A stretch of DNA of 63,523 bases, counting the filler, from Stramenopiles sp. TOSAG23-6 (Eukaryota), in assembly GCA_900128565.1 (NCBI GenBank). It is 14 parts of 14 records of this genome, joined end to end, with 100 filler letters (N's around TTAATTAATTAA, not from the genome) between each part and the next. Parts side by side here need not be neighbours in the genome. Positions count along the whole stretch, not along the records: positions 1 to 4,468 come from LT637162.1; positions 4,569 to 9,035 come from LT637163.1; positions 9,136 to 13,595 come from LT637164.1; positions 13,696 to 18,154 come from LT637165.1; positions 18,255 to 22,709 come from LT637166.1; positions 22,810 to 27,262 come from LT637167.1; positions 27,363 to 31,814 come from LT637168.1; positions 31,915 to 36,355 come from LT637169.1; 6 more parts are not named here. One strand, written 5' to 3'. Position 1 is the first letter of the stretch. Every line of letters starts with the position of its first letter. Position numbers and translations under genes: made by a program. Below the pieces are notes generated by a model, which was not told the origin of the DNA, made no database searches, and saw nothing but the letters and a program-made list of their open reading frames with translations. Shown in pieces: positions 1,960-63,523 of this stretch.

Positions 1960-4468
1960 TCACGTGTAATGCACGTGTAAATGCTTTAGCTCCTCGCCTT
2001 GGTGTAAGTGGTGGTGAATGTGCTTTCCGTATTTTGCTTTAGTATTATATACATTAATATTTGAATATTCTACAGAGGACGCTTCCGCGTAACTATTAAT
2101 TGCAACTAATTCCACAAATCTGTGTAATATGTTTGAAGACGTAGACTTGGCAAGTTTTTTTACGTGAACAGCATTTTCTCGAGTTACACAGTGTTCCATG
2201 ATGAATATTTGTACCAACTGATGCAAGTCTTGTATTCTGTATTGATCACTCGCAACTAACAGTGCAACTGCAGCCTCATAATGCAGGGAAGGACCAACAC
2301 TAGCAGTGTATGTATAATTAATTAAACCTTGGACGGCTGTTGGTGGTAAAACAAGTCCAGAGAGTAATATATTATTGGCAATATTCTTGCTGCCTACGGA
2401 ATCGCAGTTGTTTTCATGGAAACCATTTGATAAACTTTCTTTAGATTTTTCAGATTTTTCTAGTTGAAATTTAAAATTGTTAAATAACACCGGTAATCGA
2501 GTAGCAAGAAAAGCACAATGCAAATTACTTACAGATGTACCTTCTTCTTCATTTTCGCACGATATACGAATATCGTCTAAATCACCTGATAAAGCATATG
2601 AAAGAAGAAGCGCTCGCTTATTCATTTGTTTTAGTTCCAACACTTTATTTGCTTCATTAATTCGTGTTTCTTTCAAATGTTTCTCAACAGATCGAAATGA
2701 TTTTCCACGAGCTCGTGTTTTTTTCATTAGTCGTCTTTCCTTAGCAGTAATTCTACGACGATGCTTTGTTATATTTGTTTCAGGTTTTGATATTTTATTT
2801 GAACAGCTGATGGCTGTACTATTATATAGTTCTGTATCTATTTTATCACCTGTTTCATCACTACTCCAGTCACTATTTGAATTACTTTTCGAATTATTTA
2901 TATTACTATCACGACTCATCATACTTTGTTCTGTTAGGACACTTTTTGAATCATCAAGAAACCAAGAATCATCGCCAAAACCACCAAAACCAAAATTATT
3001 ATACAGCAACTCATTCGTATCTACCATCGAAGAAGATTCCGATGATGTATCGCTGGCAAAGTCTTGCAATTCTTGATCCAATTCTTGATCGAATTCGTCA
3101 CTTTCAGTATTGTTAGTAGATAATGTAGTGTAATGTGATATGTCTGGAATTAAACTTGAAATTGACGCACTAGCCATTTTACATGAGGTTACATGAAGTT
3201 TTTGTATACAGGCATCAGCTTTATCTGGATTAATCATATCTTCTAAATATGCACAACTTCCACTGCACCATGTATCGTAACATGTAGAAATTTCATCATA
3301 GAGGGAAACAAGACTATTTGTTTTTTTATATGTAACGTATGAACCTTTATCGTCTAATTGCGGAGTTAAAATTCCAGAGTAAAAATACCGTAATAGAGCT
3401 TGGCAAACCTGCTTGGATGGTACTACATCTTCACTCCTTGTTTCCGTTATATTGACAGTTGTAGGAATAGACGCAAAAATGTTTTTAGCAATGAGTGCGT
3501 CACCATTTGTAATCTCATTCACATTGTGTTTTTTTAATTCAGTTTCCATTCGATCAAGCAAATGGTTTTTAAATAATTTCCATCGTTTACAAAGAATTGA
3601 TCGATGAACTTGAAATGTATGTTTACCCCATATTAAAGTAGTATCTGGTAGAATAGCTTGATTTTCCAAAGGAGAACTAAGACCAATCATACTTTGCATA
3701 TCTTTACACCAACATCTAATTGTGCGCAGGGAAATCCATTCTGTCATTTTTCCTGTTGCTGCTGGTGATCTACATCCAAACCAAGAAAATGAATTTGAGG
3801 AAAAGGAAGCACAAGTATTGTGAAAAAATATTTTACATTCGAAATTCGTTAAGTACAAAATTTGGTACAAAAAAATAAATTCAAAATTGAAATAATGGAA
3901 ACGTACAAAATACCCACGTATTTCTCATTCGGTCTTTTAGTTTATCTGGAACAGGAATGTGCAATCGAAGTGACGTACTTATAGCAGCAACACCATCTGA
4001 CCTAATATCGACATATTTTCTGTGTTTTCGTTGTCTAGGATGATTGTCGTCGTGAGGAATATTATTATAGCATATACCAGGCAAAAGAGCTGTAAAACCT
4101 TTACAAGCAGATTCCAACATGTCACAAGATATTAATTGTTCCTGCATATATTTTGGGTGTGGTTCAAAATCTGTCTCTCGGCGGTCTGGGTTAATACCTA
4201 CACCCCATCTATATATATATCCACGACGAGTAAGAGCAGAAGCAGCTGATACACCACAAGAAACAGAAATTACGTCGACATTTTGTAGTCCAGTAATTCG
4301 TACGGGATCATACATAAATGGTTGTGCTGCACACATTGAACCCCATTCATATACAGTGCCAGCACCATTACATGCAACAAAATATTCTTCTCCAAATGCA
4401 ACACATCGAAGAGCATTACCACAATTTGCATTATATTCGGATAAATCAATTTCTCGCATGTAAGATGC
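1960..4468 (-). CDS. 3' part of the same gene: RCC1-like repeats, one intron (3813-3906), then two BTB-like domains
   Basis: RCC1-like VISVSCG...ALTRRGYIYRWG. BTB-like FQVHRSILCKR...LLRYFYSG and LHCAFLATR...LINYTYT. Removing 3813-3906 joins WVF-C-ASF in frame. Confidence 0.75.
3813..3906 (-). mobile_element. Introner-like intron, GT...TT, TT/TT flanks
   Basis: TT|GTACGT...GTACTTAAC...CACAATAC TT|GT; removal restores the frame. Confidence 0.75.
4414..4468. repeat. 55-nt terminal direct repeat identical to 1-55 (circular-contig overlap)
   Basis: CATTACCACA...TAAGATGC is identical at both ends of contig 1. Confidence 0.95.
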
Positions 4469-4568
4469 NNNNNNNNNNNNNNNNNNNNNNNNNNNNNNNN
4501 NNNNNNNNNNNNTTAATTAATTAANNNNNNNNNNNNNNNNNNNNNNNNNNNNNNNNNNNNNNNNNNNN
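4469..4568. other. Artificial contig spacer (N-TTAATTAATTAA-N); 13 copies starting near 4469, 9036, 13596, 18155, 22709, 27263, 31815, 36356, 40895, 45430, 49957, 54484, 59005
   Basis: Identical ~100-nt N-flanked linker with stops in all six frames; intervening contigs decrease steadily in length. Confidence 0.97.
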
Positions 4569-4879
4569 TCAGCACATATGTTTTCAATATTGAATTTTTT
4601 TTTTTTTTTTTTTTTTTTTAATAAAAATTTTTATACCTAAAAAAAAAAAAAAAAAAAAGGTACTTATTTATAGGAGTACGTAGTACCTTTATAGGAAGAA
4701 CAGGTTTGCGCCGTGGCCAATCATTCGAATGTAAAAAACGTCTTGCTACCTACACCAACACAATTAGCATCAAACACAATTATGAATCTACCTGACACCA
4801 AGACGCGACACCACACATAGATGACTTAGTCTTGTTGGGACATTAATATTAATCCCACGTATATCGAGGCAGAATTGCA

Positions 4880-6095
4880 ATGCGTAAGGTCTATATAGTA
4901 AGTTTTACACTTGTATTTCTATGTTGTATCGAAGCTTGTTCACCACCTTGTACGGATGGTCAGTACTGTTACACGAGCAAAACAACTAGCAAAAAGAAGT
5001 GTGAGAACAAAAAGGAGAAAGGGGAGCAGTGCGACAAATCATATGACTCGTGTATTGACGATAAATGTATAATCCCATCAAATCGACAAAAATTAGGTTT
5101 TTGTGGGGGTTGCATTTATCACCAAGCCGCTTGTCTTTCTAGTACATTCTGCGAAAAAGAACCTGATAGAACATTTCGAGGAGAAGTTCCTGAGACAAGT
5201 CCTCGGGGAACTTGTCTTCCTAAAATTCGTAAAGGCGGTAACTGCACTCCCAGATATGATGAATCATGCGAAGGTAATCTGGTTTGTGTATTTAATAAAA
5301 AAAATCAAAAGGACGAGTGCCAGAAACCTTGCACTTCAAATGACAATTGTCCAGCACTAAAATATTGTGAACTGACCATTGGTAAGTGTTTCCGGCAAAA
5401 ATATCATGGTGATAAATGCAAACCAACTCCAATTAATCTAAAACAGTGCCATGGTAAGTTCAAGTGTGTTCGTAACACTTGTCGTTTCAATTCGAATCTT
5501 CCAGTGGAAGCCGTTCTTGTTCCTGCTATTTGTACGTTTTCATCGTGAATTTCTGAATTATTTTTTTTTCATACGAAATTTTGTACCTAACATTTTTTTT
5601 GAAATATTTTTTCACAATACATGTGGTGCTTTGGTATTTGTCGTACTTGTATCGCTGCTCTGCAAGTGCAAGACAAAAAAAGTTTCCAGTTTAACATTCA
5701 AAGCCACGACCGAAACAATTAGATATCCCCCCGTGGGACATGAAAGATCTAATAATTTATCTCGTGTTTGCTCTAAAACTGAATTATGTATGCTTGGTGC
5801 AGAAGATACGTTAAAAAGTAGTCTAGTTCAAGCGAATGTCGTGTCGGTTGTACGTTTTCAGAGTTGAATGTTTTACCCTGTATACTATTTTTTATAGAAA
5901 AGTTTGTACCTAACGATTTTTTTTTTTATTTTCGGTAAAAAAACAAAAAAAATATTTTTCACAGAACAGGGTTCAGATAGTCTTGATATTGATCAAGCGT
6001 TAGAAACGGATCAACAGGCGAGTGGAATTACCGTTCTTCAAGAAGAGCAGGGCATTGTTTTTGAACGACGCGAAACAACAAGCATGTGCCTTTAA
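4880..6095 (+). CDS. Cysteine-rich type I membrane protein (signal peptide, Cys repeats, one TM), introns 5532-5622 and 5850-5969
   Basis: Hydrophobic N-terminus, repeated C-x-C/YC units. Splicing gives the TM segment AVLVPAI-CGALVFVVLVSLLC and joins three ORF-track fragments in frame. Confidence 0.75.
5532..5622 (+). mobile_element. Introner-like intron, GT...AT
   Basis: T|GTACGT...TTGTACCTAAC...CACAATAC AT|GT; interrupts a TM helix. Confidence 0.75.
5850..5969 (+). mobile_element. Introner-like intron ending in canonical AG at the ATAC+2 register
   Basis: GTT|GTACGT...GTACCTAAC...CAGAAC AG|GGT, phase 0 on both sides. Confidence 0.65.
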
Positions 6096-6175
6096 TGAAA
6101 TTCAGTATAAATTTTGATATTTTGGAAGAGCCTTTAATGAAATTCAGTATAAATTTTGATATTTTGGAAGAGCCT
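6088..6175. repeat. 42-bp tandem duplication over the stop codon/3' region
   Basis: GCCTTTAATGAAATTCAGTATAAATTTTGATATTTTGGAAGA occurs twice. Confidence 0.9.
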
Positions 6176-12100: not shown

Positions 12101-13595
12101 ATGCGCAATTCAATTTCAGGTTCCTTGAACCGACTGGTGCTCATAATAATTTTTTCATTCCACACAGGGCTTTTTGCTAGACGAACTTGCTGCGATGTTG
12201 CGATATAATTTGTTGTCGGGTCTTTCTGGGATTTTTTAGCTTTACTTCGCCGACTTATTTCCTTATTTTGCCATTGTGTCTTCATAGTTAGTATATGTGC
12301 ACACTTTTTTTCCCAGTCGGTTCCTGCTTCTCCAATCACTAATTGTGCAAATATACCACCAGCGCCTCTAGCGGCTTTTGTAGATTTTCCTTTTCTATTG
12401 ATACCACGAAGTTGTTCCGCTGATAAGAGGATAAATTTTAGATGATTGCCAAACACTATTTCTTCTTCTTCGTGCTTCAGTGTGTTTTGCATCGCCTTTT
12501 GTTTCTGGGCTTCGGTACTTTCTATTAACAGCGTATTCATTTGCAACACAGTAGTTCGCTGTGCTTTCCAACGTCTTGCATGGCGTTGAAGTAAAGCCAA
12601 AGCTCTCTCGCCAGGTCCACCTCGACAAAGTAGATTTGTTGCTGCAAGTTTTAATGTCAACTCAGAAACTCTCGAATTAAAAACTATTACTGTTTTTCTT
12701 CCATTTGAAATATTTTGCTTTAACATTCCTACAACTTTTGAATGGTGCAAATTTGAAACATTCTTGTCATCAACATGTGTAACATACATACCAAGTTTTA
12801 CACCTGAACGTTCAATCGGCCCTCGAATCAAATGACCTCTTTTATGACTGGTCTGTGTCGATTCTACAAGGTAGAAACGTTTAAGTCGACAACCTCGATT
12901 CATGAAACCATGATCGAATTTTACACCGATAGGACCAGGTGGAAAAGATATACGACGAGTCATTGGTTTTGGAAGAATTACTTTCGCATCACCTTTCTCT
13001 ACAGCGGTCAACATATTTTTATCAAATAGTTCTAGCGGCCTCTGCCAGCTTAAAGTAATAGTATGTATTTTGGAAAAATATTTGAAAAAAAAATCGTTAG
13101 GTACAAAATTTCGTATTTGAAAAAAAATAAAACATACACCTTGTGCAATTAATTTAAGACTCGAAGCAGATAGGTTTATATCTATTGGTCCACCAGAAGA
13201 TCGATATTTTGGTATTTTTACTCTACACTGCCCAATGACATTTCGATCAATGCACGCAGCCTCTTTAATAGCTAACTCCATTTTCATTTTATCTACAATG
13301 TTGTTAGCAACATTTGAAAAACTGTCATCAACTTCGACAATTCTAATTGATACTTCAGGCTGTGAAATATTATTTAAATTTAGCCATATCATTTCATTCC
13401 ATTTTGCATCACGTTTCCGGGGTACACTTTTAGAAGAATTTACGTATTTTATATTCCCTGGCGATGAATATTTCGTGGCCAACTTTAATTTTTCTTTAAA
13501 ACCCATTCCTTCTTCCCCTACGACCACCAATACAACACACAAAAGACCATTATCGTCGTCACTGTCACTAAAAATAAGTGTTTCATCTTTTGTAG
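9189..13595 (-). CDS. Large protein with repeated C2-PDZ-IQ modules (partial at both ends), intron 13063-13137
   Basis: Repeated P.W.E...IG.C C2 patterns, PGPIG PDZ loops and LQTQWRAR IQ-like motifs. The element peptide VCFIFFQIRNFVPN...SKIH is embedded in frame. Confidence 0.75.
13063..13137 (-). mobile_element. Introner-like intron, GT...AT, 75 nt, stop-free in frame
   Basis: GGT|GTATGT...GTACCTAAC...AAAATAC AT|ACT. Removal gives QGTITLSWQR, matching the sister repeats GKINFAWQR, GELSIIWNR and GIMWVAWER. Confidence 0.8.
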
Positions 13596-13926
13596 NNNNN
13601 NNNNNNNNNNNNNNNNNNNNNNNNNNNNNNNNNNNNNNNTTAATTAATTAANNNNNNNNNNNNNNNNNNNNNNNNNNNNNNNNNNNNNNNNNNNNAATAA
13701 AACAAACATGCATTGTGAGAATATATTAATTTATTTAATGAAATATTTTTTGTTAGGTACAAAGTGTACTACGATTTTTTTTTCTTTTTGTTCTTTACTA
13801 TACAAAAAATTGTAATAAAAACGTACGTATTTTGGAAAAATAATTCAAAAAAAAAAACTCAAATTTGTTAGGTACAACATTTCGTACGAAAAAAAACAAT
13901 TCAAATTGAAAAAAAATAAAACGTAC

Positions 13927-37316: not shown

Positions 37317-37427
37317 ATGTATTTTGGAAAAATATTTCAAAATTTTCTATAAAAAAAAAATTTGTTAGGTACAAAATGTACTATAAAAAAGGTAAGACAA
37401 AAAATTGAAAAAAAAAATTAAACATAC

Positions 37428-42239: not shown

Positions 42240-42342
42240 ATGTATTTTGGAAAAATATTTCAAAAAAAAAGTAAAATTTGTTAGGTACAAAATTTCGTAC
42301 GAAAAAAAAATTCGAATTTGAAAAAAAATAAAACGTACATAC

Positions 42343-43375: not shown

Positions 43376-43925
43376 CTATTCTATTTTCTTATTTTTGCCG
43401 TCTCTTCCATCTATCGAACTTGGCGCAACAATGATGTATGTATTTTGGGAAAATATTTCAATAAAAAACCCGTTAGGTACAAAATTCCGTACGAAAAAAA
43501 CATCATACAAAAAAACAAAAATAAAACATACATACACCACAAACAATAAAAATCGCTCCAACGCACCACTGGAATCCCAGACGCTCATTAAATAATAAAC
43601 AACCAAAACAACCACTGGCAAGAAAATTAGTGGAATTACTTAATACCGTAGCTACTGTAGTACCACATTCATGCATACTTTTTACAAATAAACTTATCAT
43701 TAAACCATTAGCAACTATCATTATACATAAAAACGCAAGTCTTACGATCCAAGTTGCGGAATGACATAAAAATGGTGATGGAGACTCCATTTGTAAACAC
43801 TGTGTGTCAATTGTAGTTACAACAAACGTCGAACTGTCAGATGCAAGCTTTCCACAAGCACCAGCCAATGCTGCAACAAGCCCACTAATGAAAGCAGAAT
43901 AATATCCGCCTAAAGTCAAATTCAT
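43376..43925 (-). CDS. TMEM42-like small multi-pass membrane protein, intron 43438-43531
   Basis: SG..AALA...GKLA, N..M..LF.KS, AT......NF..SG..G..LF.E; splicing gives CGVYIIVA. Confidence 0.7.
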
Positions 43926-48500: not shown

Positions 48501-49899
48501 TATATGCAATAGTAATACTGAATCCTCACTTTATACCTTTCAAAATAGTTTGCCCACTATTGCAATGTGGAGCCGAACGTGTCTATCTTCTGAAACAAAA
48601 AAAAATGAGATATCTCCTAAACATTCGTCAGGCTTAGGGTTTGATGAAAAATATTCTGGATTTGCTCCATTAGATGAAGAAGTTTTAGCAGCATGGGCAT
48701 CTGGTCTAGAAAACTTCAATTATCCATTAGCTTGTGGATACACAGAATTCGTAGACAAACATGAAGAATTTTCTTTCATACCAAAACTTCATTACGAATG
48801 GTATCAGCAAAGTTGTGTGAACCCTAACCCTACTATTGAATCTGGTGTATTGCAAAAGAAACAGCATTTATCAGCAGCTGTATCTGCACCTGACGTTTTA
48901 AGTACAAGCAAAAATACTCATGTACTTTTTTAATTTTCATTTTTTGTTTTGTTTTGTTTTGTTTTTTTCGTACGAAATATTGTACCTAACGATTTTTTAC
49001 ACTTTGGAAAACTTTTTACCGATATATTTACCCGTACGATCAAGAAGAAGATCAAAGACGAAAACTCTAAATGGTAGAAAAGAAAGAGGTTGTGGTGCTG
49101 TATCATACTTGTCTCCAATGGTAGGTTTTATTTTTTTAATTTCGAATATTTTTTTTTTTTTATACGAAATTCTGTACCTAACAAAAAAATATATTTTTTT
49201 TTTCACAATACAGGTATGTTTATTTTTTTCAATTTGGAATTTATTATTTTCATACGAAATTCTGTACCTAACAAAAAAATATATTTTTTTTTTCACAATA
49301 CAGGTATTACGCAATCGACTTGAGGAAATCATTCAACGTCCTGGAGGCATTGGCGATTCACTAACAGTGGATATGGATGTTTTATTTTTTTTTTTTACAA
49401 AAAAATCGAATTATTTTTTCGTACGAAATTTTGTACCTAACGAATTTTTTTAGATTTTTTTTCAAATATTTTTACAAAATACATGGATTTGCTTGAATCT
49501 ACTGATGATACTCATTCAAACACTTTTGATTCTTTATCTAGTAAATTTAAATTTGATACAAATGCAGACATGTATATTTTATTTATTTTTTTAACAAAAA
49601 AATCGAATTTATTTTTTTATAGGAAATTTTGTACCTAACATATTAAATTTTTTTTTTGAAATATTTTTCCAAAATACATATATTGGAATATGTTATGGTA
49701 TTGTACTCGTCTTCGATTGCCTATGCCATTGCAAATGGAATATGGTGGAAATAATTCGATAAAAATTGAATTTTCTAGTGAAAATCCTCGCATAAGAATT
49801 GGATGGAATTATCCTGGAATGAGTCGAGATACCAGAAATAAGTATGACACAACAAGTGATACTACTAAACTAAATACTTCAAATGGTCTTGGATTAAAT
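45584..49899 (+). CDS. DENND4-like protein (end of DENN domain, PPR-like repeats, conserved C-terminal block), many element introns, partial
   Basis: TQMF..FIEE...LFFD.CI; SYRALI..G...A..VF..M...GV.PNALTYG.Y; DEEVLAAW; YLSPM-VLRNRLE; YWNMLWY..RL.LP. Confidence 0.75.
49121..49303 (+). mobile_element. Two abutting elements (49121-49213, 49214-49303), both GT...AG
   Basis: ATG|GTAGGT...AATACAG|GTATGT...AATACAG|GTA; the 3' halves are identical. Confidence 0.8.
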
Positions 49900-50111
49900 G
49901 TATGTATTTTGGAAAAATATTTCAAAAAAAAAATTTAATTTGTTAGGTACAAAATTNNNNNNNNNNNNNNNNNNNNNNNNNNNNNNNNNNNNNNNNNNNN
50001 TTAATTAATTAANNNNNNNNNNNNNNNNNNNNNNNNNNNNNNNNNNNNNNNNNNNNTTGTACCTAACAATTTTTTTTAGATTTTTTTTGAAATATTTTTC
50101 CAAAATACATA

Positions 50112-51340
50112 CTACTCATTTGGAAAACTTTAAATTAAAAGATGATATGAATGAATGTACAAAGGGACAATATAAAATTTCGGATGTGACAAAACGTAGA
50201 ATTATTAGACACGTGTCAAAGTATGCTAATTCTTCAAGCAATAGAGAAGCTTTCAATGTTCTTTTTAGAACTTTCTTGGGACACGTACTTGTACTGTTGT
50301 CTTCTATTTCAATACAAAATAGTATAGTAAGTCGTACAATTAGTGTATGTTTTTTTTTTTTCAATTTAAATTTAAATTTAAATTTAAATTTAAATTTAAA
50401 TTCCGAATTTTTTTTTACCAAACAAATTTTACAAAAAAAATATTTTTTCACAATATATGTACTTGGATTTGCCCTGTTGCGATTACGGCTCTATATGATC
50501 TTCCATGATTGTGCTCACTGTTCGTTTTTTCCAAGACAAACATCAAAAAAATACAAATCAAAAAAAAAATATAATTCAAGTAAGATGAATGAATATACAG
50601 GTGTTTTAATTGGTGTGACAATATATACACCATATTATATATGGGCTAGAGGTCATCGGTGTCATCATACAAATGTCAATAATATTGATTCCAAACAGTA
50701 TGATGGAATTTCTGCCCCATGGACAACAGTTGATTGGAACGTAGCTAATTATAGTAGTCGTATTTGGTATTTATTCAATTATGGTCCAATTACATATTTT
50801 ACAATTATGCCATTCTTAACTGTTGTGTTTCTACAAAGATTCAGTTGTTCATATATAGAAAATTGTAGTGTTTTAATATGGCTTACTTTAATATATTTAG
50901 CATCGGGAATAGTTGGGGTATATATTGAATTCGCTATTGTATTTTTATTCACTACTATCGGTTATTTGCTGTTTCATGTACAGCATACATTTGAAAATAG
51001 TTACAAAGCAGATAATTGCCATTGGAATTTTATTGATTCTGCTTTATTAGGATCCAGTTTTGCTTTAATCCCAAATTTTCTAAAATATTTTACACTTGGT
51101 ATAGAGTATCATCATATACACCACTTGAACCCACAGGTTCCATGCTACCGTCTACAAAAATGTCATGAAACAGCAGATGAGTTAGATTTACTTCCAATGA
51201 TTGAAAGAGTTAACTTCTCAAAGTTTTTATCTTCACTTGGATTTTCTATATATAACATCTGTAGTAATACATCTGGTAATAAGGGGTTCTATTCAAATGT
51301 TTATATGCATGCCATTTCAAGTTTTATAGATGGCAATTAA
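50112..51340 (+). CDS. Membrane fatty acid desaturase (5' partial), intron 50345-50458
   Basis: Histidine boxes HDCAH, HRCHH and HHIHH, plus LFHVQHTFE. Confidence 0.88.
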
Positions 51341-51770
51341 TGCCATTTATTTTATTTTAATAAATCTATTTCCATCTCTCAGCTCATCTGGAGCTCATCT
51401 GAGATTGATAATATATCAAAGAAACATGATTTTTTTTTTTGAAAAGTAGTTTTTTTTATTTTGTACATTGAATTTTAATGTCTCAATGATTAGATTGCAA
51501 ATTTTACATTTTTCTTGTTTTTTCGTGTTTACGTTTATTACGATTTATATTTAAATAGAATTTCGTGTTTTTTTTGCCATATGGGCGCGTCATTTCCTTG
51601 TTGAAAAATGTACTCCTCTTTTTGAAATTTTGCCATCCCTGAATAATATAAGAAATATATTCATTCATGCTTTCAATGCGTATTACTCTGTGTAAACCAT
51701 ATGTAGTTTGATTAATTCTATTATACATTAATTTACTGAAACTGAGTGTGTGCCAACTGCAGTCAACAGA

Positions 51771-54417
51771 ATGAGACGTCGCAGACAAAATCAAGCTTTT
51801 CTTCACGAAGACAACCCGTGCACACGTCGTTTTCGTCATTTCTTACACCGAACAATGCATACTCGTACATACCTTCTGCTTAATACATGCCTTGTTTTAT
51901 TTTCATGTATTGCTTATGTGGTTGAAACTTATGTAGATGAAGATATTCCTTCTCCAGCCTACGCAACTTCTCCACAGCACTGGGTTACTCTCATTATTGA
52001 TATATTTATTAACTTCGCTTTCGCTGTAGATTTTATATTTTCTGTCATTGGATTCGGGCGCGAGTATATATTTTCTGTATATGCTCTGGTAGACTTTCTC
52101 TGTTTAGTACCCGCTCTACGTCTATTCGTTGAAGGTTCAAAAAACTTAGGGTGGATTCGTTTTTTTCGTGTCTTCAAAGCTGTTCGAATACTCGGACTTT
52201 ATCGTATTCTTGAAATACAGCAGCAAGGAAATATGGTGGATACTGTTTCTCAACAAATAGGTAAGCTGTGCTTTACACTTTGTGGTATAATATTTGTTAC
52301 TACTGGAATAGTACATGCTTTTGAGGTACATAACTATGAGTCGTTCATTGACTCTCATGATTCCAGTGGAGTTGCACGGCAGAGTATGTACGTTTTTCAT
52401 CATGAATTTCAAATTTATTTTCTTTTTCATACGAAATTTTGTACCTAACAAATTTCGAATTTGACATATTTTTTCAAAATACATGCCCTTTCATGAGGCC
52501 TTTTATTTTATAATTGTAACATTTTCAACTGTTGGTTATGGTGATATATCTCCTGCAACTACGGAGGCAAGGATGACAATGGTAGTATCTATCTGTGTCG
52601 CATTTGCAACGATACCTTCAAAAGTTGCGTTATTGTACGTACCAAAAATAACCCTAACCCTAGTCTTTATCAAAATATTCAAAAAAAAAAAAAAAATTCA
52701 TAGAAAATTTTATACCTAACGAATTTTATTACTAAAAAAAATATATATATATTTTCTCACAATACTTGACTACTCAGTTATCAAAACGATCGGTATATCG
52801 AACAAGAAGTATTGCTAGAAGACATAATAGATGTGGTCGATTCCGCTGGCCTTGTCGATGTATGTTTTATTTTTTTGAAAATTTGATTTTTTTTTTTGGT
52901 TTTTTATAAAAATTTTGTACCTAACAAAAAATTTTAGATTTTTTTTTGAAATATTTTTCCAAAATACATGTCCTCGAAATGTCATAAAATGCTTTAGTTG
53001 TTGTTGTATTGAAGATGATACTAGGCAAAAACTACAGCAGAATTCGAATAAACGAAATGTCAGTGGCGAGTTCTATTCTTCAGCTGCTGTGAATAATTTT
53101 CATCTTGCTAGGCAAAATAGAGTAAAAACAAAATGTAATTGTACATTATTTCAACATCGTGATCATGTACGTTTTATTTTTTTTTCAATTTTGAATTTAT
53201 TTTTTTATAAAAATTTCGTACGTAACGATTTTTTTTTACTAAAAAAATATTTTTCCAAAATACATGTAGTGGTGTGTGGTAATATTACTGCAGGTGGTCT
53301 TTCTGTGTTTCTGTGGGAATTTTTACATCCAGATCATTATGTAACTAGACGACATCGTCGTTTAGAAATGCCACGTGTCATTGTTTTAGCCCCGTATGAT
53401 CCTGTTCCAGGATCTATGATTGATATTGTATTAAAACAACCACATCATCGCAATCATGTATGTTTTNTTTTTTTTTTNAANCAAAAAAANTCGANTTNAA
53501 NTTNAANTTTTGTACCTAACAAATTTAAGTTTTTTTTTTTTGAAATATTTTTCCAAAACACATGTCATTTGGTTGACAGGTAGTGCGATGATTGGTACAG
53601 ACCTTACTCGTGCAGCTGTTGATGAAGCACTTGCTATATTTATACTGACAAATCCTGTATGTTTTTATTTCATTTTTGTAACCCTATTTGTTTTTTTTTT
53701 TTAATAGTAAATTTCGTACCTAACGAGGTTTTTTTACATTCAAAAAAAAAGATAATATTTTTTCTTAATAAATGCTTCAGATGATCCTAAAGATGATGAC
53801 TCCCGTGCTGTACTTAGAACACTTTCAGTTGCAAGGCATGATAGTGAAGTCCTCACTTTTGTTCAATTGCATCGATCAAAAACTAAAGATCACTTACTGC
53901 ATGCTGGAGTTGTCCCACAATGCATGTTTTCATTTCAATTTCAAATTTATTTATTTTTCGTACGAAATTTTGTACCTAACAAATTTTAGTTTTTTTTTTT
54001 TGAAATATTTTTTCATAATCCATGCATGTTTTCAAGAGATGAATTGATGCTTCCTCTATTGGCACACGCTTGCCGTTGTCCTGGATTTAGTACGATGATT
54101 AGCAATATAGTTTCCAGTCATAGTATGATTCCAGAAATGAAAAAATGGACTGTCAAATCTATTTATGGAGACACCCAAGTCGAGTGGGAGGAATATGTTA
54201 ATGAAAGTTCGATTAATTGTAGTGAAGTCAATGTTGATATTAATGGAATGAAAAATTATTGCCAGTCATTGGGTGAAGAAGCAAAGGAACCATGGGTGTA
54301 TGAATACTATCGCGGTGCCTCGCACGAAATATATTCTATTGATGTGGGTAGTAAATTAAGTGGATTTGTGTTTTCGGACGTTGCTTTTAAATTATACGCA
54401 TTGTTTGAAGTCGTAAT
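51771..54417 (+). CDS. Calcium-activated (Slo/BK-like) potassium channel, 3' partial, eight element introns
   Basis: S4 RFFRVFKAVRIL, pore STVGYGD, RCK HVVVCG and GSAM..DL.RA. Introns 52388-52484, 52635-52767, 52860-52969, 53167-53265, 53458-53563, 53657-53773, 53922-54023 and 54418-. Confidence 0.88.
52635..52767 (+). mobile_element. Introner-like intron, GT...TT, TT/TT flanks, containing a CCCTAA dimer
   Basis: TT|GTACGT...TACCTAAC...CACAATAC TT|G gives KVALLTTQL. Confidence 0.75.
53922..54023 (+). mobile_element. Introner-like intron, GC...AT
   Basis: T|GCATGT...GTACCTAAC...AATCC AT|GC gives VPQCMFSRDEL. Confidence 0.7.
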
Positions 54418-54666
54418 GTATGCTTTATTTTTTTTTTTAAACAAAAAAATCGAATTTATTTTTCGTACGAAATTTTGTACCTANNNNNNNNNNNNNNNNN
54501 NNNNNNNNNNNNNNNNNNNNNNNNNNNTTAATTAATTAANNNNNNNNNNNNNNNNNNNNNNNNNNNNNNNNNNNNNNNNNNNNTATGAATTTCTAATTTA
54601 ATTTTTTTTTCATACGAAATTTCGTACCTAACGAAAAACATTTTGAAATATTTTTTCACAATACAT

Positions 54667-56017: not shown

Positions 56018-57177
56018 AAATATTTCCTGAATATATTCAATAATACTTCTAAAGGTTCGGTTCCTGAAGAGTGTAAAGATATGGCTAAGACAAATCCTTC
56101 ACCTGGATATTCTGTACAAAACGGAAAATGCTCTTGGTTAGCAAAACTTAATACTCAGCAGTGGACTGTTATAGATAAGAAAGACTTTCACAAAGGTATT
56201 GAGCTCACATATGAAGATGGTCCACCATGTGATAGTGGAAACAAACATCGCATCCGGTATCATTTCATTTGTTCGCCAAATGGAGAAAAAACAGCTCCTC
56301 CAATNNNNNNNNNNNNNNNNNNNNNNNNNNNNNNNNNNNNNNNNNNNNNNNNNNNNNNNNNNNNNNNNNNNNNNNNNNNNNNNNNNNNNNNNNNNNNNNN
56401 NNNNNNNNNNNNNNNNNNNNNNNNNNNNNNNNNNNNNNNNNNNNNNNNNNNNNNNNNNNNNNNATAACAGTCCACTGCTGAGTATTAAGTTTTGCTAACA
56501 GCATGTATGTTTTATTTTTTTTTCAAAAGTCGATTTTTTTTTTCGTACGAGATTTTGTACCTAACGATTTTTTTTAAATATTTTTCCAAAATACATGTGA
56601 CTCTAATGCATCCTTATTTGAAAAAACTAAAACTGTAATGTCAATATTATTCGGGAAAATTATCTTTGTCGTAGTAAATACATCTGCATATATCAATACA
56701 TCTATTAATAAACTTAAAGGACTTCGCAATCAAACAGAATATTCATACGAGGGTATTTCAAAAGGCAGAAGTGGCTCATCATGCTCTTCAGCTGGTGAAT
56801 TACAAAACGGAAACAGTATACTTTCAGAAGATGACATTGAGAAAGCCTCAATTGTTAATGATTTTAATTCCAGATTTCCAATGAATCAAGAAAGTTCATA
56901 TGATAAACAAGTTGATGATGTTGCATCTGGTTTAAAAAATGCTCTCGATCTTGGTGAAGACATTGAGACCCATAATACAAAAGCTGTGAGAGAAAGATCT
57001 AAAATTAACGAAAGTGACAGTTCATATGACGCATGTGATGGTATTGACAATCCATTTAACGACGATCTCCATGATGATGAAGAAGAAGATTATAATGAAT
57101 TTGATAATGATGGACCACAAGATGCTTTGCTTGAAATGGCTGGAGAATCAGATGAAGATTTTAGATTGATGAACTAA
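56018..57177 (+). CDS. Mannose-6-phosphate-receptor-homology-like membrane protein fragments with acidic tail; assembly disrupted by gaps
   Basis: GIELTYEDG..C......RYHFIC pattern, then a hydrophobic segment and acidic tail after an element. Confidence 0.45.
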
Positions 57178-59862: not shown

Positions 59863-62800
59863 TTGCTCTCAGTTTAAGTCCTGGCACAGTTACATTATTA
59901 TTCATGCAACTAAAGAGAACATTATTTCGTATTTCATTATTATTATCAAAACCAGAATTAGCCTCAAAATCAAAAAATTCAAAAAATTTAAAAAATTCAA
60001 AAAATGTAAAAAATTCAAAAAATTCAAAAAATTCAAAAAATTCAAAAAATTCAAAAAATTCAAAAAATAAAAAAAATGTAACATTTTGTTCATCAAATAC
60101 AGTTGAGAAATATCCTGTAACAAACATGAAAAATGATACAAAAAATACAAATATTGAAAATATTGAAAATATACAAAATATACAAAATAATACAAATTAT
60201 GCCATCAAAATCACAAACCTGTCTTGCACTTGGAGATATTTTCAAATTCTTCGTGAAAGCGTTAAAAGGAACAAAACTGTTATTAAAACACGAAAACCGA
60301 CACTTTCAGAATGGCTCTCAGAACGACAAAAGAAACATGAAAATCGTGAATTAGCTGCTTTATATGATTCAGGTGTTTCAAGTCCAAAAATAGTCGATGA
60401 AAAAAATTTTGAAAAAAATTCTGAAAAAATTTTTGAAAAAAATTCTGAAAAAATTTTCATGTTAAAAGATATAAATCTTTCAATTGAAAAAGGTTCAATG
60501 TCTGTAGTTATAGGAAATAAAGGTAGTGGTAAAACATCAATTTGTGCAATGATTTTAGAAGAATTAGAAGAATTAGAAAATACACGAAATATATCAAATT
60601 CCCGAAATCCCCGAAATACACGAAATAATGGTCAAATTGAAATTGTTGGTAGTTGTGCATATGTTGCTCAAACAGCTCATTTAAAAGAGGGTACAATTCG
60701 TGATAATATATTATTTGGTTTACCATGGGATGAACATTGGTATAATGACGTCATTACTGCAACAAACCTGCTTGAAAATTTCCAAATTTTTCCATTAGGA
60801 GATCAAACAAAAATTTCACAACATAGAAATTCAATAGGGTTAGGGTTAGGGCTAGGGTTATCTCTTTCTTCAGAATGTCAATTAAAAATTTCATTAGCTC
60901 GAGCTGTGTATAGTAAAGCATCTATTTATTTAATTGATGGATTGTTTGATGTATGTTTTATTTTTTTTTTTTAGATTTTTTTTGAAATATTTTTTTTCAT
61001 ACGAAATTTTGTACCTAACAAATTTTCAAAATTTTTTTTGAAATATTTTTTCAAAAGACATACTGTTGATTCGTTTATATCAATGAAATTATTTGATGAC
61101 GTCATAGGACCAAATGGGCTTTTCTCTCAATCGTATCATGAAAATCATGAAAATCCAAACAAAAATAACAAAAACAACAAAAATAACAAAAATAACAAAA
61201 ATATTGAAAAAACACGAATTATTACATTTGATTCTGAAAATATGAAAAATGTTGATTTTGAATGGATGAAATCGGCTACATCAATTTGGTATGTTGATAA
61301 TGGTACAATTATAGAGAATGGAAATTATAATAGTTTACTACAAAGAAAAGAAGGAAAATTTTCAAAACTTGTGAAAAATTGTCAAAATCAAAAAAAAAAT
61401 AAATTTAAAAATTGGAAAAATGATTTGAAAAAAAAAACGAAAAAACAAAAAATTGAAAATTATAAAAATACAAAAAATACAAAAAATACAGAAAATACAA
61501 AAAATACAAAAAATACAGAAAAAAAATTATTCGATAAATGTAGTGAAAATCCTATAGGACATGAAACATCTCCATTGACACGTGTCACTTCAAATTGGTT
61601 GACAAATGCTGCTGAAGTGTATGATTCACCAGTCGCATTTCAACAATACAAAAAAAAACTTGATTTTGTTCAACCTATAAAAAATGTAAAAACTACAAAA
61701 ACTATAAAAAATGAAAATTTTGATCATTTTGATCATTTTGAAAATAGCCCTAACCCTAGTGAAAATTTTGATACATTTGAAAATAACCCTAACCCTAATA
61801 ATAATACGGATGAAAGTGTACAAGCAAAACTTCTTTTTTCTGATATATCAATACAAAATCAATATAAAAAAGATCAGTATAATAATATTTTTAGAATGTA
61901 TTATAATGCTGTTTTTTTTTCTGAAAATACAAAAAATACAAAAAATACAAAAAATACAAAAAATACAAAAAATTCAAAAAATACAAAAAATTCAAAAAAT
62001 TTAAAAAAATGTTTTTTTTATTGTCATGGAACATTCCTGTTGATTTTTATCATTGTTCTCTTTATTATTCCAGAAATTTCATACATTTTTGTTGAATATT
62101 GGATCGCAGATTGGTCTGAAAATCAACACGAAATCTCAGCAAAATTTTCATCGTCTGATTATTATGAAAATATTTATATAGTATTTGTGAGTATATGTAT
62201 GTTTTTATTTTTAAATTTTTTTTTTTTTTTTGTATATTTTTTTTTCGTACGAAATTTTGTACCTAACAAAAAAATTTAAAAAAAAAAAAAAATATTTTTC
62301 ACGATATATATGTCATATCATTATATCTAACAAAATATAGAGTATCTCTTTTAACATGGTTGGACGTACAAGCATCACAATATTTAAGAACAAACCTGCT
62401 ACGTTCTATTTTATATGCACCTTTATTACATATAGAAAACACGAAATCGGATGATTTTGTACAATGTTTTATTTCCGATTTACCAACAACTTTTGCTTTA
62501 TTAGCTGTTAGTATACAAACATCACTTTTTTATGGATTTCGTGTTATTTCAACATTTTTATTTATTAGTATAACAGTGCCATACTTTTATATAATAAGTC
62601 CATTTATTTTGATGATTTGCTTATATTGTAGGTTTATTTTTTTTTTTCAAAATTTCAAAAATTTTTTTTTTTTTTTTTTTTTACAAATTTCATACCTAAC
62701 AAAAAAAATTAAATATTTACATTTTTTCAACAATGTATGGGGAGTCTATTATTGTAAAACAATGTCACAATTATTACAATTTCAAAAAAAAACAAAATTA

Positions 62801-63129
62801 AAAATTCATTCTCATTACCAACAATGTTTATCAGGTATTGTGAGTATTCGAAGTTATAACGCAGAAAATTATTCATTACTTGTATGTTTTCAATTTTGAA
62901 TTTATATTTTTTTTTTTTCAATTTTGAATTTAAAATTAAAATTTAAAATTTTTTTTTTTTTTCAAAAATTTTAAAGTTTTTTTTTTACTATGAAAATTTT
63001 GTACCTAATATTTTTTTTTTACTATAAACCTATATTTTCATAAAATACATGAACATTCGCAAAAACTTGAAGATTCAAATAAAGTTACATTTTGTGTCGT
63101 TGCTATTGATGTACGTTTTTTTCATCATG

Positions 63130-63165
<36 letters not shown>

Positions 63166-63429
63166 NNNNNNNNNNNNNNNNNNNNNNNNNNNNNNNNNNN
63201 NNNNNNNNNTTTTTTTTCGGTAAAAAAAAAAAAAAATTTTTTCACAATACATGCTTGGATTGAACAAAGATTATCCTTTATATCAACATTCTTATTATTT
63301 TTTTGTACCACTGCAATTGTCATTTGGAACAAAACTGCTTTTGGTAAAATAGGAATGTCAGGGTTAGGGTTATGTTATGCATTAGAATTTTCAAATAATT
63401 TATTGTTGGGTTGTCGTAGTATTGCAGAT
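59863..63429 (+). CDS. Divergent ABCC/MRP transporter (NBD1 and TMD2 exons), partial
   Basis: LKDINL, Walker A GNKGSGKT, AYVAQ...GTIRDNILFG, ISLARAVY, later G...IRSY and W...RL; many 9-nt repeat insertions and element introns (e.g. 60951-61061). Confidence 0.8.
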
Positions 63430-63523
63430 GTATGTTTTTTTTTTTTTGAATTTTTTTGAATTTTTTTTTCGTACGAAATTTTGTACCTAACGATTTTTTT
63501 TTTTAAATATTTTTCCAAAATAC

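What the first reader, a model, noticed from the sequence alone, without database searches (positions are those of the whole stretch)
3813..63523. High-copy introner-like intron family with mostly non-AG 3' ends (GT-AT dominant; also GT-TT, GT-GT, GC-AT)
Seen: roughly 60 related copies, about 1 per kb by manual count. Consensus is GTAYGT-polyT...TTTCGTACGAAATTTTGTACCTAAC...GAAATATTTTTC(C/A)(A/C)AATAC+NN. They lie in coding sequence and are sense to the host gene in all but one case. Removing GT through ATAC+2 nt restores frame and conserved motifs (BK HVVVCG, C2 GTITLSWQR, TM helices, Mpv17). At 3813, 13063, 52388 and 53167 the first downstream AG is out of phase with the donor, so canonical splicing would not rescue the gene. 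Established: GTAYGT and CTAAC are U2-type donor and branch signals; introners are intron-generating transposons; U2 introns almost always end in AG. Inference: a spliceosome that tolerates, or positionally defines, non-AG acceptors has allowed genome-wide intron invasion. Non-canonical introners are known in Fritillaria and Amoebophrya, but I do not recognise this GT-AT type.
Basis: partly seen in the sequence, partly recalled or inferred. Interest (0 to 1): 0.92.

Follow-up and report, generated by a model that had tools for sequence, protein, structure and literature searches.

The report
Mobile introns that end in AT
An uncultured marine microbe's genes are peppered, about once per kilobase, with copies of one short mobile element that looks like a normal intron at its start and branch site but almost never ends in the usual AG, so its splicing machinery probably reads a different end signal.

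Summary
The window is 14 small contigs of one AT-rich eukaryote joined by spacers. It carries about 60 copies of a 75-133 nt element: GTAYGTTTT start, palindrome TTTCGTACGAAA, TTTGTACCTAAC box, conserved 3' block ending AATAC plus 2 nt. Copies lie in coding exons, sense to the gene (15-20 to 0; one antisense copy). Removing GT through AATAC+2 restores the frame in 20 of 21 informative copies. It also turns a seven-fold interrupted K+ channel gene into one 647-codon ORF collinear with a 61%-identical orthologue. Of 31 mapped copies 29 end in non-AG (24 AT, 3 GT, 2 TT). The first AG is in frame in only 6 of 27.

New here: the last two intron bases tend to repeat the two exon bases before the GT. 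The 3' end therefore looks like a 2-bp target-site duplication, as in transposon-made introns. The junctions carry the YAY signature published for Fritillaria tunicates. End-pairing and fixed branch distance are not supported.

Not shown: splicing itself. I obtained no RNA reads and no transcript-derived sequence.

Verdict: a transposon-derived introner family with canonical 5' and branch signals but duplication-derived, mostly AT, 3' splice sites in a probable protist. This is a new variant of a known kind.

The parts
3813..3906 (-). element copy, GT..TT, flanks tt/tt
   Evidence: informative, +2
5532..5622 (+). element copy, GT..AT
   Evidence: informative, +2
13063..13137 (-). element copy, GT..AT, in the C2-repeat protein. 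This junction discriminates the splice register.
   Evidence: removal gives G-x5-W as in 3 internal paralogous repeats. The shifted register gives D. The first AG gives a frameshift.
13825..13926 (-). element copy, GT..GT, followed directly by a second diverged copy (tandem)
23215..23303 (-). element copy, GT..AT, in an Mpv17/PMP22 gene
   Evidence: Pfam profile resumes at position 10-13 of 62 at the predicted acceptor
26681..26770 (-). element copy, GT..GT, flanks gt/gt
   Evidence: informative, +2
30811..30901 (-). element copy, GT..AT
   Evidence: not informative
31288..31404 (-). element copy, GT..GT, flanks gc/gt
   Evidence: informative, +2
36901..37011 (-). element copy, GT..AT, HYDIN/CFAP65-like gene
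37130..37222 (-). element copy, GT..AT
37317..37427 (-). element copy that breaks the rule: the frame needs AATAC+0 or +3
38443..38564 (-). element copy, GT..AT
39715..39829 (-). element copy, GT..AT, flanks aa/at
40776..40882 (-). element copy, GT..AT; upstream exon cut by the contig end
   Evidence: not informative
42240..42342 (-). element copy, donor GTATGTAC, GT..AT
43438..43531 (-). element copy, GT..AT, after an EamA-like membrane protein exon
46367..46457 (+). element copy, GT..AT
48399..48501 (+). element copy, GT..AT
49121..49303 (+). two tandem copies (49121-49213 and 49214-49303), each ending ..AATACAG, with no exon between them
   Evidence: 91% identical to each other
49900..49956 (-). 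the one antisense copy, cut by the contig end. Its reverse complement shows GTATGT directly after an open + strand ORF.
50345..50458 (+). variant copy, GT..AT, in a fatty-acid desaturase gene
   Evidence: the junction is not resolved by homologues
51732..54436 (+). BK-like K+ channel gene (pore TVGYGD, RCK start HVVVCG) split by seven copies
52388..52484 (+). channel intron 1, GT..AT
   Evidence: junction ..ARQSM|PFHEAF.. against orthologue ..TA M AFHEAF..
52635..52767 (+). channel intron 2, subfamily with (CCCTAA)2, GT..TT, flanks tt/tt
52860..52969 (+). channel intron 3, GT..AT
53167..53265 (+). channel intron 4, GT..AT
   Evidence..QHRDH|VVVCGN.. identical to the orthologue around the junction
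53458..53563 (+). channel intron 5, GT..AT (3' block ..AACAC)
   Evidence..HHRNH|VIWLTGSAM.. identical to the orthologue
53657..53773 (+). channel intron 6, diverged 3' block ..AATAA+AT, flanks ct/at
   Evidence..LTNP|ASDDP.. against the orthologue's ..LTDP ASVDP... The shifted register would give H for the conserved P.
53922..54023 (+). channel intron 7, GC..AT, or GT..AT within a 13-nt direct repeat
56505..56596 (+). element copy, GT..AT; upstream exon cut by an N run
60951..61061 (+). element copy, GT..AT, at the end of an ABC-transporter ATPase domain
62197..62309 (+). element copy, GT..AT (3' block ..GATAT)

Best explanation
These are introners: copies of a short non-autonomous mobile element that makes a new spliceosomal intron wherever it lands, sense-oriented, in a gene.

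Each copy brings its own strong U2-type 5' splice site (GTAYGTTTT), a branch box (TTTGTACCTAAC, read as CTAAC with the branch A) and a conserved pyrimidine-rich 3' block (run of T, then YCAMAATAC).

Insertion duplicates a 2-bp target, usually AT. The intron that restores the message is the element plus the downstream copy of that duplication. It therefore starts GT and ends with whatever the target was: AT in about three quarters of copies, otherwise GT, TT or AG.

The 3' cut is placed 2 nt after the AATAC block. It is not placed at an AG and not at a set distance from the branch. The host's major spliceosome (or its 3' splice site factors) must therefore accept a non-AG end, mostly YAT followed by a purine.

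Shown: the family, its orientation, the exact borders needed for a functional mRNA, the flank duplication signal, and the lack of end-pairing.

Inferred: removal at the RNA level by the spliceosome, the DNA-transposon origin, and the changed 3' splice site recognition.
For: Family and density.

Strand bias 15-20 sense to 0 antisense among testable copies. This argues for an RNA-level, strand-specific process.

Frame: 20 of 21 informative copies open at AATAC+2 (p = 4e-9).

Whole-gene test: removing seven copies by the rule gives a 647-codon ORF with 0 stops, collinear with orthologue P0002 (61% identical over the first exon, 1775 aa, EukProt gene model). Five junctions lie in gap-free conserved blocks. 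A first-AG model gives 35 stops.

Register: at 13063-13137 and 53657-53773 the 2 nt before the GT differ from the last 2 nt of the intron. There the GT register gives the conserved residue (G in 3 paralogous repeats; P in the orthologue) and the shifted register does not.

Target-site duplication: the 2-nt flanks match in 24 of 39 rows against a permutation mean of 16.6 (2 of 10,000 permutations reach 24). Among 29 curated copies, 4 of 7 non-AT ends match (p = 0.0012), and 3 of 4 without the tandem cases (p = 0.005).

Signals are conserved above background. Median pairwise identity is 74% (55-92%), but the 5'ss, the box and the 3' block columns are 80-99% conserved.

A degenerate copy lies outside coding sequence (4569-4660). 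17 of 28 contig ends break at copies against 11% of random windows.

Precedent for a duplication-derived non-AG 3' splice site and the YAY signature: PMC11282704 passages and PMC13326754 section 21. Here YAY makes up the last 3 intron nt in 22 of 29 copies and the upstream exon triplet in 12 of 29, against a 7.5% background.
Against: No transcript evidence of any kind was obtained, so splicing, its efficiency and the exact cut sites are inferred.

One well-flanked copy (37317-37427) does not fit the +2 rule.

The flank duplication is imperfect. 6 of 22 AT-ending copies lack AT upstream, so 'AT belongs to the element, with a preference for inserting after AT' cannot be excluded.

Terminal inverted repeats are weak (GTAT/ATAC plus T/A runs). 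No transposase was found among 28 ORFs scanned against Pfam, so the transposon class is unknown.

Where the two flanks share their last T (most copies), the GT..AT register cannot be told from one shifted by a single base.

The orthologue is itself a gene model from an unnamed EukProt dataset, and its own gene structure was not visible.
Confidence: 0.7

Rival explanations
1. AT-AC register. In the majority of copies, which have AT before the GT, the intron really runs from that AT to the C of AATAC. That would be a U2-type AT-AC intron, whose first and last bases (A and C) are a known compatible pair. Only the minority without upstream AT would use GT..NN.
For: In 20 of 29 curated copies the flanks are AT/AT, so both registers give the same mRNA and cannot be told apart from DNA. 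U2-dependent AT-AC introns exist (PMC1557818, abstract in the listing). The exception 37317-37427 needs a cut directly after AATAC.
Against: 9 of 29 copies have no AT upstream and still need exact removal. In the two discriminating cases the GT register gives the conserved residue. An intact GTAYGT, conserved at 90-100%, is the expected U1/U6 site and would place the cut before the G. One rule (GT, AATAC+2) explains 20 of 21 informative copies.
Confidence: 0.1
2. A transformed minor (U12-like) spliceosome removes them. U12-type splicing tolerates non-AG ends including GT-AT, and it has expanded massively in at least one protist.
For: GT-AT is a documented rare U12-type class (7 in human plus mouse), and the U12 machinery splices GT-AT in experiments (PMC1557818 passages). 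The box ACCTAAC is one base away from the U12 branch consensus CCTTAAC (the consensus is recalled). The Physarum expansion is known to me only from a title and abstract in a search listing.
Against: The 5' site is GTAYGTTTT, with G and T where U12-type sites have CC (consensus RTATCCTT, recalled). The branch box lies 27-47 nt from the 3' end, against roughly 10-26 nt for U12-type introns (recalled). No snRNA of either kind lies in the window (Rfam: 0 matches), so the machinery could not be examined.
Confidence: 0.06
3. DNA-level excision. The copies are internal eliminated sequences, as in ciliates, removed from somatic DNA with one copy of the 2-bp repeat retained.
For: The elements are short, AT-rich, about 1 per kb, lie inside coding sequence and are bounded by a 2-nt direct repeat of which one copy must stay. 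This geometry is the same as for Paramecium IESs (recalled).
Against: DNA excision has no reason to be strand-specific, yet the copies are 15-20 to 0 sense to the gene. They carry a conserved splice donor and branch box. The repeat is AT, not TA. The genes read in the standard code with ORFs up to about 1300 codons.
Confidence: 0.04
4. Same splicing, different origin. The family spreads by reverse splicing of the excised intron into other transcripts followed by reverse transcription and recombination, not by a DNA transposase. The AT belongs to the intron, and the upstream AT reflects a preferred insertion context.
For: All copies are sense-oriented. No transposase was found in the window. 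The inverted ends are weak. In the tandem pair at 13825-13926 the second copy follows the first directly after AATAC, without a 2-nt repeat between them. 6 of 22 AT-ending copies lack an upstream AT.
Against: Non-AT ends copy the upstream dinucleotide more often than chance (tt/tt twice, gt/gt, ag/ag; p = 0.0012). A fixed intron end would not do that. One antisense copy and one degenerate non-coding copy exist; reverse splicing into mRNA would not produce these. Sense bias is equally expected from selection against unspliceable antisense insertions in a gene-dense genome.
Confidence: 0.12

Closest known systems
Transposon-derived non-canonical introns of Fritillariidae tunicates (Henriet et al. 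2019, not seen; seen here through PMC13326754 passages and section 21, and PMC11282704 passages)
   Same: Many recent, repeat-derived introns. The 3' splice site is not AG but a copy of the exonic triplet that precedes the intron (a target-site duplication). 3'AT is the commonest end (44% in F. pellucida, 34% in F. borealis). There is a YAY triplet before the 5'ss and as the last three intron bases. Here the figures are 12 of 29 and 22 of 29.
   Different: In F. borealis the 5' end is also non-canonical (AG/AC and AG/AT dominate, only 5% GT/AG). Here the 5' end is a near-perfect GTAYGT and there is a strong CTAAC box. The host here is probably not a tunicate: its BK-like channel matches animal BK structures over only about 25 residues (E about 0.1), and its only close relative is one EukProt model. 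Here a single family dominates. Whether U2AF is duplicated, as in F. borealis, could not be examined.
Classical introners and introner-like elements (Micromonas, Aureococcus, Symbiodinium, Polarella; PMC11282704 and bioRxiv 10.1101/2020.10.14.339549 passages; Huff et al. 2016 recalled)
   Same: Short non-autonomous elements at high copy number in unrelated genes. [quoted passage not shown] There is a sense bias.
   Different: In those families the recruited site obeys the canonical code (TSD such as GHNN or AGGH; 3' AG). Here the recruited 3' site is AT/GT/TT in 29 of 31 copies, and the duplication is only 2 bp.
Introners of Amoebophrya, non-canonical introns of hemistasiid diplonemids, and nonconventional introns of euglenids (PMC7789003 passages; PMC12621601 abstract and section 5; PMC11282704 passages)
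   Same: Non-GT/AG borders, short direct repeats across the borders, and a suspected MITE origin.
   Different: Those introns lack conserved 5' and branch motifs and rely on extensive pairing of the intron ends (8-20 nt inverted repeats; U1 not detected in Amoebophrya). Here the motifs are strong, and predicted end-pairing is no better than a control (0.24 against 0.27).
Rare GT-AT introns of animals, U2-type and U12-type (PMC1557818 passages)
   Same: The same terminal dinucleotides. They show that spliceosomes can ligate after AT.
   Different: Those are single exceptions (one conserved U2-type case, DGCR2; 7 U12-type cases in human plus mouse). Here it is the rule for a family at about 1 copy per kb.
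Ciliate internal eliminated sequences (recalled)
   Same: Short AT-rich inserts in coding DNA, bounded by a 2-bp repeat of which one copy is kept.
   Different: IESs are removed from DNA, are strand-indifferent and are bounded by TA. Here there is a strong sense bias and there are splice signals.

Membership tests
Introner / introner-like element | Many sequence-related introns at unrelated positions in different genes | tested here: met
   About 57-62 copies in 14 contigs and at least 12 different genes. Median pairwise identity 74%.
Introner / introner-like element | Copies are removed from transcripts as spliceosomal introns | not testable with these tools
   Read laying gave no result. No transcript-derived proteins or contigs were found. 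Indirect support only: frame, orthologue, strand bias.
Introner / introner-like element | Transposon hallmarks: target-site duplication and terminal inverted repeats | tested here: inconclusive
   A 2-nt flank duplication is supported statistically but is imperfect. The inverted ends are only GTAT/ATAC plus T/A runs. No autonomous copy or transposase was found.
Introner / introner-like element | Positions are lineage-specific (absent from relatives) | tested here: inconclusive
   The orthologue's protein is collinear across all 7 channel junctions, but the orthologue's gene structure was not visible. The element was not found in JGI metagenome contigs or viral contigs.
U2-type GT-AG intron | 5' GT with U1/U6-complementary hexamer | tested here: met
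   GTAYGT in 30 of 31 copies and GCATGT in 1. Columns are 90-100% conserved.
U2-type GT-AG intron | Branch consensus CTRAY upstream of the 3' end | tested here: met
   CTAAC box 27-47 nt from the 3' end.
U2-type GT-AG intron | 3' terminal AG | tested here: not met
   2 of 31 copies end in AG. The first AG after the box is in frame in 6 of 27.
U12-type intron | 5' RTATCCTT and branch TCCTTAAC within about 10-26 nt of the 3' end (consensus recalled) | tested here: not met
   The 5' site is GTAYGTTTT. The box is 27-47 nt from the end.
U12-type intron | Minor-spliceosome snRNAs present in the genome | not testable with these tools
   No whole genome is held. Rfam found nothing in the window.
Fritillaria-type non-canonical intron | YAY triplet before the 5'ss and as the last three intron bases; 3'ss copied from the exon | tested here: met
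   22 of 29 and 12 of 29 against a 7.5% background. Flank duplication.
Fritillaria-type non-canonical intron | Non-GT 5' ends dominate (AG/AC, AG/AT) | tested here: not met
   30 of 31 copies start GT.
End-paired non-canonical introns (Amoebophrya, hemistasiids, euglenids) | Extended complementarity between the intron ends | tested here: not met
   Mean pairing of nt 1-6 with the last 12 nt is 0.24, against 0.27 in a control with the 3' end reversed (29 copies).
Ciliate-type IES | Orientation-independent DNA excision at TA repeats | tested here: not met
   Sense bias 15-20 to 0. The repeat is AT. Empty-site DNA could not be tested.

The most novel reading that the evidence does not exclude
A marine protist lineage whose major spliceosome has given up the AG requirement. 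The 3' splice site would be specified by a roughly 20-nt signal carried by the intron itself (T run, YCAMAATAC, then two free bases, usually AT, before a purine). A mobile element bringing donor, branch and this 3' signal could then create a working intron at essentially any AT in any gene. This would be an independent, cleaner parallel to the Fritillaria case, with intact U1-type and U2-type signals, so the change in 3' splice site recognition could be isolated experimentally.
Probability: 0.45. Interest if true: 0.85.

Novelty: new variant of a known kind. Interest (0 to 1): 0.7.

Why it matters
Why nearly all spliceosomal introns end in AG, and how far that rule can bend, is an open question. 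The only well-studied large-scale exceptions (Fritillaria, Amoebophrya, hemistasiids, euglenids) change both intron ends at once and often lack clear branch signals.

Here donor and branch are textbook, and only the 3' end departs. It departs in a way that is explained by the insertion mechanism, the 2-bp duplication. If transcripts confirm it, this gives a natural system in which recognition of the 3' splice site (U2AF-like factors, second-step factors, Prp8) can be studied separately from everything else.

It would also show that introners need not wait for AG-containing targets, which raises the ceiling on how fast genes can gain introns.

There is a practical warning too. Gene callers and introner surveys that assume AG (or AC) ends, or that discard families with unfamiliar ends unless RNA-seq supports them (PMC12130899 passages), would miss such families and would mis-annotate every affected gene.

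Tried and rejected
Read laying gave nothing. 

Transcript-derived proteins: searches with the 338-aa exon of contig 9, among near-length and among shorter proteins, gave one weak unrelated hit each (23% and 40% identity).

JGI metagenome contigs gave no relative of the HVVVCG exon (354 pattern matches, none confirmed) and no exact match to a 20-nt element core. Viral contigs gave none. Genome contigs gave one match inside a Bacteroidales gene with no element features, rejected as chance.

Desaturase junction (50345-50458): homologues were found, but their N-termini are too diverged to place the junction.

A first orientation test with 300-nt flanks was too noisy (16 sense, 1 antisense, 16 ambiguous) and was replaced by the abutting-ORF test.

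Rules tested and rejected:
- Hairpin or end-pairing guidance.
- A fixed branch-to-3' distance.
- First YAT after the branch: 1-6 earlier YAT in nearly all copies.

Host taxonomy: the ESM Atlas gave only generic GPN-GTPase clusters. Rfam found no RNA genes. No whole genome is held.

A search for non-family GT-AG introns by frame breaks between long ORFs found none that was convincing.

Earlier notes of this scan hold nothing on this genome or element.

Literature searches for a prior description found none. In one search the 15 papers listed (of 396 holding any term) hold only the 8-9-mers, none the two longer element motifs.

Supplementary tables of the introner surveys (PMC12130899, and PMC9860276, which I saw only in a search listing) were not opened. 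They could list this lineage or a GT-AT family.

Full report
WHAT THE WINDOW IS
The 63,523 bases are not one locus. N runs of 44 flanking TTAATTAATTAA recur every ~4.5 kb and split the window into 14 contigs of 4,468 down to 4,419 bases. It is a size-sorted, spacer-joined fragment assembly. GC is 24-41% per 2 kb.

The genes are eukaryotic and read in the standard code. They include SH3, BTB, RCC1-like, ankyrin, C2, DnaJ, EF-hand, LRR and dDENN proteins, an ABC ATPase, Mpv17/PMP22, an EamA-like protein, a sulfate permease, dienelactone hydrolase, a GPN-loop GTPase, a HYDIN/CFAP65-like ciliary protein, a fatty-acid desaturase and a BK-like K+ channel.

No whole genome is held and Rfam finds no RNA gene. 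A small DNA library holds 0.90 of the sampled words of one contig, and seawater metagenomes and poly-A metatranscriptomes hold parts. I could not lay any of these runs, so I draw nothing from them.

The host is probably a protist rather than a tunicate. The channel's only close relative among 1.84 billion representatives is one EukProt gene model. It also matches solved animal BK channels only over the first ~25 residues of RCK1, at E about 0.1.

THE OBSERVATION
The core TTTGTACCTAAC occurs 73 times (up to 2 mismatches) against 7.9 expected. 59 of the 73 hits carry the neighbouring family motifs, and four more exact-core hits are diverged members. That gives about 60 copies, roughly 1 per kb.

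A copy is 75-133 nt and is built as follows:
- GTAYGTTTT;
- T-rich filler of variable length;
- the perfect palindrome TTTCGTACGAAA (19 occurrences);
- the box;
- more T-rich filler;
- a 3' block: a run of T, then YCAMAATAC, then two bases, then the exon.

In 29 curated full copies the columns of the donor, the box and the 3' block are 80-99% conserved, although median pairwise identity is only 74%. The two bases after AATAC are A (24 of 29) and T (27 of 29), and the first exon base is a purine in 28 of 29.

17 of 28 contig ends lie within 110 nt of a family motif, against 11% of random internal windows. The assembly therefore breaks at these repeats, which implies a very high copy number beyond this window.

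ORIENTATION
I asked on which strand long open frames abut a generous interval around each core. Of 38 testable cores:
- 16 have at least 60 open codons on both sides on the element's strand only;
- none on the opposite strand only;
- 22 on neither.

With one flank of at least 100 codons the count is 21 to 0. One hit (24497+) is a chance match inside an exon, so the real counts are 15:0 and 20:0.

The single antisense copy (49900-49956) is cut by a contig end. Its reverse complement happens to present GTATGT immediately after an open + strand frame.

A degenerate copy (ATATGT in place of the donor) lies upstream of a gene at 4569-4660. Copies therefore do exist outside coding sequence, and they decay there.

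WHERE THE BORDERS MUST BE
Four tests agree.

1. Frame. For 31 mapped copies I joined the best upstream frame to the sequence starting 0, 1 or 2 nt after AATAC. 21 copies are informative, and 20 of them are open only at +2 (p = 4e-9 against one third). Of the 10 uninformative copies, 7 are also best at +2. The other three are cut by a contig end or an N run (two cases), or (53657-53773) are resolved by the orthologue. An earlier, less curated version gave 18 of 21. Two of its three misses were anchoring errors: the donor at 42342 lies 4 nt upstream, and the 3' block at 62309 was anchored 2 nt off.

2. Orthologue. An exhaustive HMMER search with the first channel exon found P0002, 1775 aa and 61% identical. 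tblastn shows every alignment break falling at an element. Removing the seven elements by the rule gives a 647-codon ORF with no stop, collinear with P0002. The sequences around four junctions are identical or nearly so:
   - QHRDH|VVVCGN
   - HHRNH|VIWLTGSAM
   - LTNP|ASDDP
   - QCMF|SRDELML

   Cutting at the first AG after the box gives 35 stops.

3. Paralogues. The contig-3 protein has four internal repeats ending G-x5-W-x-R. The one split by 13063-13137 is restored exactly, with G and correct spacing, by the rule. The first AG gives a frameshift.

4. AG rescue. Among the 27 non-AG copies of the 29 curated full copies, the first AG after the box lies downstream in 22 and upstream in 5, and it is in frame in only 6.

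The resulting ends are GT-AT 23, GC-AT 1, GT-GT 3, GT-TT 2 and GT-AG 2.

One copy does not fit. At 37317-37427 the only open frame of the next exon needs a cut 0 or 3 nt after AATAC. This is either a different acceptor or a 1-nt assembly error.

WHICH REGISTER
Most copies read ..AT|GTAYGT...AATAC|AT|R.., so GT..AT, TG..CA and AT..AC borders give the same mRNA. Where the two flanks differ, the GT register gives the conserved residue:
- G rather than D at 13063-13137;
- P rather than H at 53657-53773.

Nine of 29 copies have no AT upstream at all. An AT-AC reading therefore cannot cover the family, while GT plus AATAC+2 can. A shift by a single base cannot be excluded wherever both flanks end in T.

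WHERE THE ODD LAST DINUCLEOTIDE COMES FROM
The 2 nt before the GT equal the last 2 nt of the intron in 24 of 39 rows, against a permutation mean of 16.6 (2 of 10,000 permutations reach 24).

The informative cases are the non-AT ends. In 29 curated copies, 4 of 7 match (tt/tt twice, gt/gt, ag/ag; p = 0.0012). Without the tandem cases, 3 of 4 match (p = 0.005).

This is the footprint of a 2-bp target-site duplication with a preference for AT. The intron is the element plus the downstream repeat. Six AT-ending copies lack AT upstream, so either one repeat has mutated or AT is partly intrinsic to the element.

No transposase is present among the 28 ORFs scanned, and the inverted termini are weak (GTAT/ATAC). 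The class of the element, and even a DNA against an RNA route of spread, remain open.

WHAT DEFINES THE 3' SITE
- Not distance from the branch. The distance from box end to 3' site is 27-47 nt, spread over all three mod-3 classes.
- Not the first YAT. 1-6 earlier YAT occur in nearly all copies.
- Not pairing of the intron ends. The ensemble probability that nt 1-6 pair with the last 12 is 0.24, against 0.27 for a control with the 3' end reversed.

The site tracks the conserved 3' block. The simplest reading is that a 3' splice site factor recognises that block, or tolerates any dinucleotide two bases after it. This is inference.

COMPARISON WITH WHAT IS KNOWN
Classical introners carry one splice site and recruit the other from the duplication, but the duplication then has to spell a canonical site (GHNN, AGGH, 3' AG). 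Sources: bioRxiv 10.1101/2020.10.14.339549 passages and PMC11282704 passages.

Amoebophrya introners, hemistasiid introns and euglenid nonconventional introns lack conserved motifs and depend on paired ends. Sources: PMC7789003 passages, PMC12621601 abstract and section 5 and PMC11282704. That does not fit here.

The closest match is Fritillariidae. There 3'AT is the commonest end, a YAY triplet precedes the 5' site and forms the last three intron bases, and the 3' site derives from the duplicated exonic triplet. Sources: PMC13326754 section 21 and PMC11282704.

The same signature is present here. YAY forms the last three bases in 22 of 29 copies and the upstream triplet in 12 of 29, against a 7.5% background. 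Both junctions are pyrimidine|purine in 26 of 29.

The differences are the intact GTAYGT donor and CTAAC box, the dominance of one family, and a probable protist host.

GT-AT ends are otherwise rare curiosities of U2-type and U12-type introns (PMC1557818 passages). One rarely spliced Giardia case also appears in a table row (PMC10711314).

Large introner surveys accept only AG or AC 3' ends unless RNA-seq supports an unfamiliar family (PMC12130899 passages). They would therefore miss this family in an unannotated fragment assembly.

I found no description of this family or of its motifs. I opened no supplementary files, and Henriet et al. 2019 itself is not in the library.

WHAT IS MISSING
Direct evidence of splicing is missing. 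The one read-laying run produced nothing. No near-identical transcript-derived proteins exist in the protein collection for the contig known to be held by RNA runs. The JGI, viral and genome collections hold neither the gene nor the element.

The RNA-level reading therefore rests on strand bias, conserved splice signals and the need for exact removal.

VERDICT
The family is real, dense and sense-oriented. It is best explained as transposon-derived spliceosomal introns with a duplication-derived, mostly AT, 3' splice site. It is a new variant of a known kind, closest to the Fritillaria case and not homologous to it as far as can be seen. It is worth confirming with the public metatranscriptomes that already contain the organism.

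Noticed in passing
whole window; spacers at 4469-4568, 9036-9135, ... 59005-59104: The window is 14 contigs of 4,468 to 4,419 bases in falling order of size, joined by N44-TTAATTAATTAA-N44 spacers. Any feature that appears to cross a spacer is an artefact. Two of my early rows (49900+, 50112-) were artefacts of this kind.
   Followed up: yes
16 sites, e.g. 36747-36758(-), 42118-42129(-), 48820-48831(+), 52650-52661(+), 54988-54999(+), 60836-60859(-), 61785-61796(+), 63360-63371(-): The telomere-like 12-mer AACCCTAACCCT (up to 1 mismatch) occurs 16 times against 0.10 expected. Some copies lie near the 5' end of a second intron subfamily. Others lie inside coding exons, where they read as NPNP. 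Dispersed interstitial telomere-like motifs at about 1 per 4 kb, including in exons, are unexplained.
   Followed up: partly
1-55 and 4414-4468: The last 55 bases of contig 1 repeat its first 55, and an open frame (SH3 / RCC1-like / BTB gene) runs through the join. This indicates a circular path in the assembly graph, meaning either a tandem unit or an assembly artefact.
   Followed up: partly
37317-37427 (-): This is the one well-flanked copy that breaks the AATAC+2 rule. The next exon's only open frame needs a cut 0 or 3 nt after AATAC. It is either an alternative acceptor (GT..AC) or a 1-nt assembly error.
   Followed up: partly
49121-49303 (+) and 13696-13926 (-): Two tandem pairs of copies. 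At 49121/49214 two 91%-identical copies, each ending AATACAG, abut with no exon between them. At 13926/13826 a second, diverged copy starts directly after the AATAC of the first, with no 2-nt repeat between them.
   Followed up: partly
6280-6440 (-): A partial copy (palindrome remnant plus exact box, with no donor and no 3' block) sits just past the stop codon of the 680-codon ORF 6403-8445. It lies between direct repeats of about 11 and 20 nt that include the stop codon region. Its origin is unclear.
   Followed up: no
53922-54023 (+): This channel intron is bounded by a 13-nt direct repeat (ATGCATGTTTTCA). Its borders can therefore slide, and GC..AT is only one of several equivalent readings.
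   Followed up: partly
element interior, e.g. 52420-52437 (+): The 12-nt perfect palindrome TTTCGTACGAAA lies immediately 5' of the branch box in most copies (19 exact occurrences). GTAC recurs in the donor, the palindrome and the box. It could be a protein-binding site for mobilisation or a small RNA hairpin. I did not test either.
   Followed up: no
53467-53507: A run of nine single N's lies inside one element copy. This suggests low-confidence base calls in the T-rich filler.
   Followed up: no
18255-22709 (contig 5): Copy density is very uneven. Contig 5 (DnaJ and EF-hand genes) has no copy, while contigs 9, 11 and 12 have 8-11 each.
   Followed up: no
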